DNA of 64,000 bases, from the IMG/VR virus record IMGVR_UViG_3300025584_000449, positions 1 to 64,000 of that record. One strand, given 5' to 3'. How positions within the stretch are numbered: position 1 is the first letter of the stretch; each line of letters starts with the position of its first letter. The translations under genes were made by a program, and so were the position numbers. Source of the stretch: a virus. The notes under the pieces were generated by a model, which made no database searches, was not told where the DNA came from, and worked only from the letters and a program-made list of their open reading frames with translations. This document shows, one piece after another, positions 21,741 to 22,436 of the stretch.

Positions 21741-22436
21741 ATTTGTTTATACATCTGATAGGCCTGGTAAGTCATTTAAAATCAAGGACTTATAGAAATC
21801 GTCTATCAGTTGTGTACATCCGGAACCCTGGTACCGTTGCGACCTGTAGAGTAGGCCTTTCCGAGCCCTTCGTGCACGTGGTCAGCGTTAGACCTCTTAA
21901 GTTAATATAATATATATTAAGTATATGGATCCGTCGACGACGTCTTCAGCAGGCTCGCCGGGCGGGCGGAGCTGAGGACCTTTCGAACACGAGTACACAT
22001 CGTACTGTACTGTATTAAGCGCTTTAGACGTTTAGTACTCTTAACAGCTGCAGAACCGAACTCGGGTGAGTCGGTGAGCTCCGCAGGCATGCGCATACAA
22101 CATGTAGTTGGCCACGTCTCATCCCTTAGGAGAGGAAAGTAATTAACGACAGGACAATAAATCGAAAACCGACCGCTGTCCACGCGTGCACATATCGATA
22201 AATCGACATCGTAACACTCGAGGCGCCGACGACCGGTCAGTCATCATTCTTACCAGGTAACCGGATAAACGTAATTTAAGTTTTGTGACGCGGACGTAAG
22301 TTTAGTTTGACACCGCGCGGTGTCTCACTTAAACTTTAGTCTCTAAGACTACAGAACTTAAATTACAACGAGGCTGTACCGTCTCCGAAACGAAGACGAA
22401 ACTTCTTTTGAAATGAAAATAAAACTATAAACAAAT
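21741..22436. other. Non-coding, GC-richer, palindrome-dense structured element bounded by 11-bp inverted repeats
   Basis: ATTTGTTTATA (21741-51) / TATAAACAAAT (22426-36); 26 GC-containing 6-bp palindromes in 21813-22237; nested hairpins. Confidence 0.7.

What the first reader, a model, noticed from the sequence alone, without database searches (positions are those of the whole stretch)
21813..22237. A natural 'polylinker': 26 GC-containing 6-bp palindromes (25 different) in 425 bp
Counted by hand: TGTACA, TCCGGA, GGTACC, AGGCCT, GTGCAC x2, CACGTG, CTTAAG, GGATCC, GTCGAC, GACGTC, TTCGAA, AGCGCT, AGTACT, CAGCTG, CTGCAG, GAGCTC, GCATGC, TGCGCA, ACATGT, TGGCCA, ACGCGT, ATCGAT, CTCGAG, GGCGCC, ACCGGT. 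Interrupted sites such as CCTTAGG, ACCAGGT and GGTAACC also occur. About 7 would be expected at 1 per 64 bp. Many abut or overlap (GGATCC-GTCGAC-GACGTC; CAGCTGCAG; GCATGCGCA). Phages usually avoid such sites. Untested hypotheses: a decoy or sponge for type II restriction enzymes or methyltransferases; a deliberate cut site that triggers recombination-dependent replication; or a sensor of the host's RM status. The block is non-coding and lies within 11-bp terminal inverted repeats, ~1.9 kb from the retron RT.
Basis: partly seen in the sequence, partly recalled or inferred. Interest (0 to 1): 0.85.

Follow-up and report, generated by a model that had tools for sequence, protein, structure and literature searches.

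The report
Palindrome array inside a phage retron RNA
An uncultured 180-kb phage and its relatives keep a gene-free stretch packed with different perfect 6-base palindromes, and in this phage it sits inside a second retron-type RNA, so the neighbouring reverse transcriptase may copy it into many DNA copies; no such element has been described.

Summary
Window 21813-22237 holds 30 six-base palindromes: 26 contain G/C and 25 of those differ. The genome mean is 3.9 per 425 bp and the next-highest window has 12. Dinucleotide shuffles of the block give 7.2 ± 2.6 (0 of 1000 reach it).

It is neither vector nor assembly artefact. Three independent assemblies carry it base for base.

At least ten relatives have an equally dense block at the same place, upstream of the glycosyltransferase gene. 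The blocks cannot be aligned with one another. Selection therefore keeps the palindromes, not the sequence. The signal is specific to perfect hexamers. One-mismatch and G·U variants are not enriched.

It has a conserved TATA-G priming motif, arms that covary in 11 units, and a G before a2. The phage's canonical retron ncRNA shares this layout.

In this window, L004 and L025 the block lies inside the arms, so it is predicted template. In most relatives it lies just 3' of a compact unit.

The function is untested. My best guess is multicopy DNA bait (sensor or decoy) for site-specific DNA enzymes.

This scan noted a similar island in another phage (e1-5765177).

The parts
22426..22437 (-). a1 arm of the second retron-type ncRNA (CATTTGTTTATA on the minus strand)
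   Evidence: Exact 11-nt inverted repeat (I14). It matches a2 at 11 of 12 positions, while random 12-mers reach 11 or more in 0.6-1.3% of trials. The same arm-plus-G layout recurs, with different arm sequences, in 11 units of relatives.
22425..22425 (-). Candidate priming (branching) guanosine, immediately 3' of a1 in the motif TATA-G
   Evidence: The T(T/C)ATAG motif is conserved at the 5' edge of the non-coding region in relatives. The canonical retron ncRNA of this phage has CAGTTCTA-G at the same position.
22376..22402 (-). Small hairpin after the G (msr-like stem-loop, CGUCU...AGACG)
   Evidence: Predicted in the minimum-free-energy fold. Similar GACG/CGTC hairpins follow the G in L004, L017 and L019. 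This rests on prediction only.
22271..22366 (-). 96-nt nested stem-loop, in the position of the long msd hairpin of the compact units in relatives
   Evidence: Inverted repeat I4, 16-nt arms, 94% complementary, and present in the folds. Compact units of relatives have a hairpin of about 100 nt in this position.
21813..22237 (.). Palindrome block: 30 perfect 6-bp palindromes (26 with G/C, 25 of them distinct), 51% GC, no ORF
   Evidence: Folds no better than shuffles on either strand (z -0.3 and -1.1).
21896..21926 (-). AT-rich islet inside the block that resembles the -10 region of the glycosyltransferase promoter (possible internal promoter)
   Evidence: Direct repeat D1, 77% identical to 21645-21674. 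Promoter-like match on the minus strand at 21937-21909. Near matches to TATATTAAAGTA. L044 has a similar islet.
21748..21816 (-). Hairpin next to a2; it would be the first template copied if reverse transcription starts beside a2
   Evidence: Inverted repeat I9, 14-nt arms, 86% complementary. It ends in CAGATG directly before a2, like CAGATAG before a2 of the canonical ncRNA.
21740..21751 (-). a2 arm (TATAAACAAATA), preceded by G and followed directly by the terminator
   Evidence: The order G, a2, terminator is the same in the canonical ncRNA at 25030-25237.
21720..21740 (-). Intrinsic terminator ending the transcript that contains the block
   Evidence: A terminator closes the equivalent region in every relative inspected.
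21652..21685 (-). Promoter of the glycosyltransferase gene (TTGACA, 16 nt, TATATT, then AAAGTA), downstream boundary of the element
   Evidence: 11 of 12 match and unique in the window. The -10 region and AAAGTA are conserved in relatives.
24106..25029 (-). Retron-type reverse transcriptase
   Evidence: Pfam RVT_1 E 1.9e-25. PADLOC retron RT models up to 269 bits. NCBIfam retron St85 RT 229.8 bits against a cut-off of 235.
25030..25237 (-). Canonical retron ncRNA upstream of the RT (a1 CAGTTCTA, then G, about 68-nt msd hairpin, a2, terminator)
22445..23302 (-). Cys-rich GP88-like protein with a radical-SAM/SPL-like fold; last gene before the element
   Evidence: No Pfam hit for this copy, but the L005 homologue hits PF17338 GP88. 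Atlas structure matches to SPL-family and other radical SAM clusters, TM 0.62-0.72. Syntenic in relatives.
20316..21620 (-). Family-4 glycosyltransferase gene, used as the anchor to find syntenic loci

Best explanation
The block is the enlarged variable part of a second retron-type non-coding RNA, window 22437 to 21740 on the minus strand.

Shown:
- The element begins with an arm (a1) that ends in TATA and is followed by a G.
- It ends with the complementary arm (a2), which is preceded by a G and followed by a terminator.
- This is the layout of the phage's canonical retron ncRNA, next to a retron-type RT.
- Selection keeps a dense and largely non-redundant set of perfect 6-bp palindromes there while the sequence drifts.

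Inferred:
- In this phage the block lies between the msd-like hairpin and a2.
- The RT would then prime from the G and copy from about 21752 upward through the block.
- The product would be a multicopy DNA of roughly 0.5-0.65 kb displaying about 25 different type-II-like sites.

Speculative: this DNA serves as bait for sequence-specific dimeric DNA enzymes (methyltransferases or nucleases). It could be a broad sensor, like the single Dam site of Retron-Sen2 msDNA, or a competitive decoy.
For: Enrichment and selection:
- The enrichment is real under genome-wide and local nulls.
- Relatives with enough upstream sequence have the block at the same place: 22, 15, 16, 22, 20, 19, 14, 25, 24, 29 and 19 G/C palindromes per 425 bp.
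- The blocks do not align. Four-fold sites of L017 against L019 are saturated at 37-46% identity.

Nature of the signal (pooled blocks):
- 237 perfect hexamers against 74 expected (z 19). P(6|4) is 0.53, while P(8|6) is 0.25, which is chance.
- One-mismatch variants are not enriched, and there is no G.U excess.
- Interrupted 3-N-3 palindromes are 1.4-1.6 times expected.
- Non-redundancy is significant in WIN, L025, L014 and L027.

Retron architecture:
- At least 11 of 12 arm positions pair at the conserved TATA-G in 7 of 9 loci, against a null of 0.6-1.3% per locus. The arm sequences covary.
- All 14 units listed, including the canonical ncRNAs, have a G before a2.
- In this window both ncRNAs end a2 then terminator, with CAGAT(A)G before a2.
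- Compact units fold into a closing stem, small hairpins and one long hairpin.
- RT genes of L044, L027, L007 and L026 have no room for an upstream ncRNA.
- The RT is retron-type.

Precedent: retron msDNA monitors DNA-targeting proteins, and a single methylation site can trigger a retron (bioRxiv 10.64898/2026.10.13.758329).
Against: - In most relatives (L006, L007, L013, L017, L019, L027, L044) a2 lies 190-320 nt from the G and the block is 3' of it. There the block would not be copied, yet it is still palindrome-rich.
- The RT already has a canonical ncRNA of its own.
- Described natural msDNAs, to my knowledge, do not exceed about 160 nt, and no msd of about 0.6 kb without a hairpin is known.
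- The block has no intramolecular fold. A single-stranded copy would show the sites unpaired, which is a poor substrate for most type II enzymes.
- The hexamers this genome avoids are missing from the block. That argues against a decoy for the host's current enzymes.
- L005 and L013 have a GC-rich block at the same place without palindrome enrichment.
Confidence: 0.35

Rival explanations
1. The array acts as double-stranded DNA in the phage chromosome, without reverse transcription. It would be a selected platform of dyad-symmetric sites for R-M enzymes or other dimeric DNA-binding proteins, for example a methylation-state sensor, a packaging or regulatory site, or a safe landing pad. Its position beside the retron RNA would be synteny only.
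For: - Only perfect Watson-Crick hexamers are enriched, with no G.U signal on either strand.
- Interrupted palindromes are also enriched.
- In most relatives the block lies outside the a1/a2 arms.
- A more distant relative (L045) has the RT and GP88 genes but no block.
- Another note of this scan reports a similar island at a different place in another phage (e1-5765177; unchecked).
Against: - One chromosomal copy adds little to the many sites of the same kinds elsewhere in the genome (for example 49 CTGCAG).
- No single protein can read 25 different hexamers.
- No DNA methyltransferase of three common Pfam families is encoded in the contig.
- It does not explain why the block always lies between the retron-type RNA unit and a terminator.
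Confidence: 0.2
2. The function is in the RNA. The block would be an unstructured 3' tail of a long non-coding transcript. Unique self-complementary hexamers in it would allow pairing only between molecules (RNA-RNA multimerisation or condensation), or would bind an RNA-binding factor.
For: - The block always lies upstream of an intrinsic terminator on the gene strand.
- In L017 and L019 the 5' part of the region is conserved at about 85%, with 21 compensatory pairs, which suggests a structured RNA.
- The blocks fold no better than shuffles.
- Non-redundant palindromes cannot pair within one molecule (inference).
Against: - There is no G.U-tolerant excess on the sense strand: 105 against 99 expected.
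- There is no preference for longer palindromes; P(8|6) is at chance.
- Odd-length interrupted palindromes, which would put a mismatch in an RNA self-duplex, are enriched.
- Palindromes are not framed by stems as kissing loops would be; the excess at gaps of 6-9 is weak.
- All-G/C hexamers, the strongest pairers, are among the least enriched.
Confidence: 0.12
3. The palindromes are a by-product of a mutational process at a hotspot, not of selection. Candidates are hairpin-end repair footprints after mobile-element traffic, template switching, or RT-linked errors.
For: The locus is a hotspot for mobile elements. HNH-like ORFs sit between the block and the glycosyltransferase gene in L005, L007, L013 and L024. 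There is an intein in the glycosyltransferase of L006 and a group I intron in L014. An RT is nearby.
Against: - Decayed one-mismatch palindromes are not enriched: 668 against 652 expected.
- Lengths are hexamer-specific rather than graded.
- There is no flank signature and no spacing pattern.
- The block shows no differences among four assemblies from different samples.
- There is no template or variable repeat pair.
Confidence: 0.08
4. The block is an artefact: cloning-vector or spike-in sequence, or an assembly chimera.
For: It looks like a synthetic polylinker.
Against: - There is no match in 72,556 plasmid records or 50,697 phage records.
- The block and its flanks are 100% identical over 860 bp in JGI, Logan and ENA assemblies of other samples. 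The neighbouring protein is indexed in 29 blocks of the collection.
- Different blocks lie at the same place in relatives from many metagenomes.
Confidence: 0.01

Closest known systems
Retron non-coding RNA (msr-msd) and msDNA, in particular Retron-Sen2, whose msDNA carries a single Dam site that acts as infection sensor (bioRxiv 10.64898/2026.10.13.758329)
   Same: - a1/a2 arms, a G directly after a1, small hairpins and then a long hairpin.
- A retron-type RT in the same gene cluster.
- A palindromic enzyme target site placed in the template region.
   Different: - This is a second ncRNA, 1.7 kb downstream of the RT, carried by a large lytic-type phage.
- The arms are 674 nt apart, against roughly 120-320 nt in the other units seen here.
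- The extra 0.5 kb does not fold and carries about 25 different sites instead of one.
- No msDNA has been shown.
- In most relatives the array lies outside the arms.
Type IIP restriction-modification target sites and their avoidance in phage genomes
   Same: Perfect, mostly uninterrupted 6-bp dyad-symmetric words. The statistical unit is the hexamer, as for the commonest type II enzymes. Interrupted palindromes are also in excess.
   Different: Here the sites are concentrated (about 3.2 times expected, pooled) rather than avoided. No cognate enzyme is known. The hexamers this genome does avoid are not in the block.
Synthetic multiple cloning sites (polylinkers)
   Same: Many different 6-bp palindromes, mostly once each, some abutting or overlapping.
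   Different: The block is natural. It is inherited at one syntenic place in a phage lineage, with different sequence in each member. It has no vector match, and the sites are scattered at random spacing over 425 bp.
GC-rich palindromic clusters of AT-rich organelle genomes (yeast mitochondrial GC clusters; Neurospora PstI palindromes), cited from memory
   Same: A GC-rich, palindrome-bearing non-coding islet in an AT-rich genome. CTGCAG is the commonest hexamer in the phage blocks (10 of 11 blocks).
   Different: Those are repeated, hairpin-forming, mobile elements present in many copies. This is a single locus per genome with no repeats and no hairpin potential.
Phage P1 pac site (hexamer TGATCA/G repeats whose Dam methylation controls cleavage), cited from memory
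   Same: Clustered palindromic hexamers in phage DNA, read through their methylation state.
   Different: P1 pac repeats one hexamer, which one protein set recognises. Here nearly every hexamer is different and the set turns over between relatives.

Membership tests
Retron ncRNA (msr-msd) | Inverted repeats a1/a2 that close the ncRNA | tested here: met
   22426-22437 pairs with 21740-21751 at 11 of 12 positions. The null chance of 11 or more is 0.6-1.3% per locus, and 7 of 9 loci reach it with different sequences.
Retron ncRNA (msr-msd) | Priming guanosine immediately 3' of a1 | tested here: met
   G at 22425 in the motif TATA-G. The same holds in all 11 downstream units and in the canonical ncRNAs (CAGTT[C/A]TA-G). 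That it actually branches cannot be tested here.
Retron ncRNA (msr-msd) | msr stem-loops followed by an msd that forms one long stable hairpin | tested here: inconclusive
   A small hairpin and a 96-nt nested hairpin are predicted. The 425-bp block between that hairpin and a2 folds no better than shuffles. Compact units of relatives do fit the canonical shape.
Retron ncRNA (msr-msd) | A retron-type RT encoded beside it | tested here: met
   RT at 24106-25029: RVT_1, PADLOC retron RT models, and NCBIfam retron St85 RT at 229.8 of 235 bits. It lies 1.7 kb upstream, with two genes between, and has another ncRNA of its own.
Retron ncRNA (msr-msd) | Production of branched multicopy single-stranded DNA | not testable with these tools
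This needs wet-lab work or read-depth analysis.
Type IIP R-M target sites | Short perfect dyad-symmetric words | tested here: met
   Perfect hexamers 237 against 74 expected when pooled; near-misses at expectation.
Type IIP R-M target sites | Recognised, cut or methylated by cognate enzymes of host or phage | not testable with these tools
   The host is unknown. No methyltransferase of PF00145, PF01555 or PF02086 is found in the contig.
Synthetic polylinker / vector contamination | Sequence identity to cloning vectors, or presence in one assembly only | tested here: not met
   No plasmid or phage record matches. The block is identical in three further independent assemblies.
Diversity-generating retroelement variable region | Template/variable repeat pair and strain-level hypervariability | tested here: not met
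   No internal direct repeat longer than 30 nt. No differences over 860 bp among four assemblies. The RT is retron-type, not DGR-type.
Known large structured phage ncRNAs (for example GOLLD, ROOL) or any Rfam family | Match to a curated covariance model; conserved fold | tested here: not met
   No relevant Rfam hit in the window region or in eight relatives' loci. The block is not folded.

The most novel reading that the evidence does not exclude
A phage-borne retron uses an oversized template to make multicopy DNA that is a non-redundant catalogue of type II restriction/methylation sites. One molecule would then report on, or soak up, many different site-specific DNA enzymes of the host or of rival mobile elements. 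The catalogue is rewritten in each phage lineage while selection keeps only its palindromic character.
Probability: 0.2. Interest if true: 0.92.

Novelty: new variant of a known kind. Interest (0 to 1): 0.8.

Why it matters
Phages are known for avoiding restriction sites. A lineage that instead maintains a dense, diverse set of them at one locus, over divergence that has erased all sequence similarity, points to an unrecognised selective use of dyad-symmetric words.

The link to a retron-type RNA gives a concrete and testable route to a multicopy DNA form. It would extend the idea that msDNA acts as a sensor of DNA-targeting enzymes from one site to a whole panel.

It also shows that retrons in large uncultured phages can carry two ncRNAs, with a template several times longer than any described. 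That is of practical interest for retron-based DNA production.

If the retron link turns out to be only synteny, the conserved palindrome islands still lack an explanation.

Tried and rejected
- **Read evidence:** No read depth, strand or expression data could be obtained, and read laying was not used.
- **Similarity searches:** blastn of the element against phage and plasmid records found nothing.
- **Relatives via other anchors:** searches of viral contigs with the RT and with ORF285 found no relatives. The glycosyltransferase worked as an anchor.
- **Exact 18-mer search:** an 18-mer from the block hit only coding regions of unrelated GC-rich phages, which are chance matches.
- **Cultured relatives:** tblastn gave at most 29% identity for the glycosyltransferase and 32-34% for the RT.
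- **Known RNA families:** Rfam gave no relevant family.
- **RNA-level tests:** there is no G.U-tolerant palindrome excess, no stems framing the palindromes as kissing loops would need, and no excess folding of the block.
- **Mutational-signature tests:** there is no excess of near-palindromes, and no flank bias, spacing period or length gradient.
- **Hypermutation:** rejected, because four assemblies are identical.
- **Faster-than-neutral turnover:** not needed as an explanation, because synonymous sites of L017 and L019 are already saturated.
- **Second island upstream of the RNA polymerase gene:** none in this genome.
- **DNA methyltransferase genes:** none of three common families in the contig.
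- **Literature:** searches found no description of such islands.
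Full report
**1. The observation**

There are 30 six-base palindromes. Of these, 26 contain G or C and 25 of those are distinct, because GTGCAC occurs twice.

The block is 51% GC in a 36% GC window. The window is the first 64 kb of a 179,902-bp IMG/VR phage contig.

Over that whole contig, a 425-bp window holds on average 3.92 G/C-containing palindromes (sd 2.25). The next-highest window has 12.

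Dinucleotide-preserving shuffles of the block itself give 7.2 ± 2.6. None of 1000 reaches the observed count.

The block holds 18 of the 24 possible palindromes with four G/C, 6 of 24 with two, and 1 of 8 with six. No other island of this kind exists in the genome.

**2. It is not an artefact**

Nothing similar is found in 72,556 plasmid records or 50,697 phage records.

The protein encoded just upstream (ORF285) is indexed, with exactly this sequence, in 29 blocks of the assembly collection. Three of the retrieved contigs cover the block: JGI 3300025592, Logan SRR3719541 and ENA ERZ4200966. In these the block and its flanks are identical to the window at every aligned base, over 860 columns. 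That also rules out strain-level hypermutation.

**3. Context**

The following lie on the minus strand, in this order:

- MoxR-type AAA+ gene, 27988-26849
- VWA gene, 26836-25238
- a canonical retron ncRNA, 25237-25030
- a retron-type RT, 25029-24106 (NCBIfam retron St85 RT 229.8 bits against a cut-off of 235)
- ORF168
- ORF285, a Cys-rich GP88-like protein with a radical-SAM/SPL-like predicted fold, 23302-22445
- the 824-bp non-coding region that contains the block
- an intrinsic terminator, 21740-21720
- a strong promoter, 21685-21652
- a family-4 glycosyltransferase gene, 21620-20316

**4. Relatives**

I used the glycosyltransferase as an anchor and fetched 29 related loci from viral and metagenome contigs. 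More loci came through the RT and ORF285.

Wherever enough upstream sequence is held, most loci have a GC-rich non-coding block directly upstream of the glycosyltransferase promoter, closed by a terminator. G/C palindromes per 425 bp are:

| Locus | Count |
|---|---|
| L004 | 22 |
| L006 | 15 |
| L014 | 16 |
| L016 | 22 |
| L017 | 20 |
| L019 | 19 |
| L020 | 14 |
| L024 | 25 |
| L025 | 24 |
| L027 | 29 |
| L044 | 19 |

Ten of the twelve relatives' blocks tested exceed their own dinucleotide shuffles, with at most 2 of 1000 shuffles reaching them.

There are exceptions:

- L005 and L013 have a GC-rich block without enrichment.
- L007 has a short dense block of about 200 bp.
- L026, L032 and L045 have none.

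The blocks do not align with each other. The closest pair, L017 and L019, shares 75% nucleotide identity in flanking genes, but four-fold degenerate sites are only 37-46% identical. Neutral sequence between them is therefore saturated.

The palindrome density has persisted through complete sequence turnover. That points to selection on palindromy itself, or to continuous regeneration of palindromes.

**5. The nature of the signal**

These figures pool eleven blocks.

- Perfect hexamer palindromes number 237 against 74.2 ± 8.7 expected.
- Of the 4-mer palindromes, 53% extend to 6-mers (chance 25%). Only 25% of 6-mers extend to 8-mers, which is chance. The unit is therefore the hexamer.
- Hexamers one symmetric mismatch away from a palindrome are at expectation: G·T type 105 against 99, A·C type 135 against 113, transversion type 428 against 441. 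There is no trail of decayed palindromes and no sign of G·U-tolerant RNA pairing on either strand.
- Interrupted 3-N-3 palindromes are moderately enriched, even where they do not touch a perfect hexamer: 1.37 times at N1 and about 1.5 times at N5 and N7.
- Spacing between palindromes is random, the flanks are unbiased, and 63 of the 64 possible palindromes occur somewhere.
- Palindromes within a block are more often all-different than sampling from the pooled usage predicts. This is significant in WIN (P 0.005), L025 (0.002), L014 (0.02) and L027 (0.04), but not in all blocks.
- The richest blocks fold no better than shuffles on either strand: WIN z -0.3 and -1.1, L027 -0.2 and +0.8.

The phage genome as a whole does not avoid most hexamer palindromes; observed over expected is about 0.7-1.2. 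It is strongly depleted in CCCGGG, CCGCGG, GCGCGC, CGATCG, CGGCCG, GCCGGC and TCGCGA (at most 0.3). None of these seven is in the block.

Among palindromes with at least four G/C, those present in the block have higher genomic observed/expected values than those absent (Mann-Whitney P 0.001). Within the four-G/C class alone the difference is not significant (P 0.11).

**6. The inverted repeats belong to a retron-type RNA**

The non-coding region downstream of the GP88-like gene starts with a conserved motif, T(T/C)ATAG, in this window and in L004, L005, L006, L007, L013, L014, L017, L019, L025 and L044.

The 12 nt on the 5' side of that G have a near-perfect reverse complement further downstream:

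| Locus | Matching positions (of 12) |
|---|---|
| WIN | 11 |
| L004 | 11 |
| L006 | 12 |
| L014 | 11 |
| L017 | 11 |
| L019 | 12 |
| L044 | 11 |
| L007 | 10 |

Random 12-mers of the same loci reach 11 or more in only 0.6-1.3% of trials. The arm sequences differ between loci, so the pairing covaries.

In all 11 downstream units, and in the canonical ncRNAs upstream of the RT, three features recur:

- The 5' arm ends in TA and is followed by G.
- The 3' arm starts with TA.
- The 3' arm is preceded by G.

In this window both RNAs end with a2 followed directly by an intrinsic terminator. Both also have CAGAT(A)G before a2.

The compact units of relatives fold on their own into a closing stem, two or three small hairpins and one long hairpin of about 100 nt. 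In L017 and L019 this region is about 85% conserved and shows compensatory changes.

In L044, L027, L007 and L026 the RT gene abuts the VWA gene, which leaves no room for an upstream ncRNA. There the downstream unit is the only candidate retron ncRNA near the RT.

I therefore read the element at 22437-21740 (minus strand) as a second retron-type ncRNA. Its parts are:

- a1 at 22437-22426
- the candidate priming G at 22425
- a small hairpin at 22402-22376
- a 96-nt nested hairpin at 22366-22271
- the palindrome block
- a hairpin at 21816-21748
- a2 at 21751-21740

**7. Where the block sits relative to the arms**

There are two layouts.

- **Block inside the arms.** In this window the arms are 674 nt apart, in L004 648 nt and in L025 456 nt, and the palindrome block lies inside them. 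In L005 a GC-rich block without palindrome enrichment lies inside a weaker arm pair (10 of 12 matching, about 700 nt apart).
- **Block outside the arms.** In L006, L007 (two tandem units), L013, L017, L019, L027 and L044 the arms are 185-316 nt apart. The block follows a2 within the same terminator-bounded region.

If retron rules apply, cDNA synthesis starts at the template base next to a2 and runs toward the 5' end of the RNA. This is established retron biochemistry, not tested here.

On that reading the block is template in the first group and is not template in the second. This is the main weakness of any explanation that needs the block to be copied.

**8. Interpretation**

Shown:

- The array is real and heritable.
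- It is maintained as perfect hexamer palindromes.
- It is part of the transcription unit of a retron-type ncRNA.
- In this phage it lies between the arms.

Inferred: the RT copies it into a long multicopy DNA.

Speculative: that DNA serves as bait for site-specific dimeric DNA enzymes. There is a precedent. Retron msDNA is described as a monitor of DNA-targeting phage proteins, and a single Dam methylation site in Retron-Sen2 msDNA triggers the system (bioRxiv 10.64898/2026.10.13.758329).

The following fit protein recognition of dyad-symmetric sites better than RNA pairing or a mutational footprint:

- hexamer specificity
- the requirement for perfect Watson-Crick symmetry
- the excess of interrupted palindromes
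- non-redundancy

A single-stranded copy would leave unique palindromes unpaired. The 96-nt hairpin at the far end of the template could in principle let the cDNA snap back and prime a second strand. That is conjecture.

The absence of the genome-avoided hexamers argues against a decoy for the enzymes that now restrict this phage. It is neutral toward a sensor for other enzymes.

I put the combined best explanation at 0.35. The alternatives are a purely chromosomal DNA role (0.2), an RNA-level role (0.12), a mutational by-product (0.08) and an artefact (0.01). The remainder is unknown.

**9. Novelty**

Full-text searches found no description of selected palindrome islands in phages, or of retron templates of this size or content. 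No cultured relative exists in the phage collection.

Another follow-up in this scan (e1-5765177) reported a similar hexamer-palindrome island in a different uncultured phage. I could not check it, and I count it only as a lead.

Noticed in passing
L044:5999-6001; also L027, L007, L026: In these relatives the RT gene abuts or overlaps the VWA gene. There is no room for the canonical upstream retron ncRNA that the window, L004, L005 and L033 have.
   Followed up: partly
L007:3502-4011: Two tandem retron-type units lie head to tail (G at 3514 and 3815, each with its own a1/a2), upstream of a short, very GC-rich palindrome block at 4100-4300.
   Followed up: partly
L014:2761-3091: Group I intron (Rfam RF00028, 92 bits) just upstream of the GP88-like ORF (3111-3728) of a relative.
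   Followed up: no
L006:4326-6731: The glycosyltransferase gene of this relative carries an intein with a LAGLIDADG homing endonuclease. Several other loci match only residues 1-325 of the query, which suggests the same insertion.
   Followed up: no
L005:5319-5990; L007:about 4430-5000; L013:1394-1693; L024:4325-4999: An extra ORF is inserted between the block's terminator and the glycosyltransferase gene. It looks like a homing-endonuclease gene (Cys-rich; no Pfam hit for the L005 copy). The locus seems to be a hotspot for mobile elements.
   Followed up: no
window 22445-23302 (-): ORF285 and its GP88-family relatives have a predicted radical-SAM/SPL-like fold. L005 and L006 carry a CxxxCxxC motif. 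Atlas lists viral forms fused to a methyltransferase-like domain, so this may be a DNA-modifying enzyme.
   Followed up: partly
L017:about 3600-3762; L019:about 3640-3806; L033:8464-8685: A small basic ORF lies directly upstream of the retron-type RNA in some relatives. The L033 copy has a weak Pfam hit to Hc1 (histone H1-like); those of L017 and L019 share a KAAGRR motif but were not scanned. No equivalent was seen at that place in the window.
   Followed up: no
whole contig G000: Seven hexamer palindromes rich in G/C (CCCGGG, CCGCGG, GCGCGC, CGATCG, CGGCCG, GCCGGC, TCGCGA) are at 0-0.3 of Markov expectation. Most other palindromes are near 1. This may be the footprint of the host's R-M systems.
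   Followed up: partly
L016:1-166: A palindrome with 83-nt arms (90% complementary) lies exactly at a contig end. It is probably a snap-back assembly artefact, and it inflates the palindrome count of that locus.
   Followed up: partly
L026:4060-4940: A direct duplication of about 430 bp in the intergenic region upstream of the glycosyltransferase gene, in a 26% GC relative that lacks a palindrome block.
   Followed up: no
G000 1-480 and 178134-179902: Both ends of the contig are GC-rich (over 47% in 300-bp windows) compared with 36% overall. Not examined.
   Followed up: no
L017:4052-4400 / L019:4104-4455: About 350 nt between a2 and the palindrome block are highly conserved between the two phages, including a near-invariant GC-rich three-way structure. 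This suggests another structured RNA domain with no Rfam match.
   Followed up: partly
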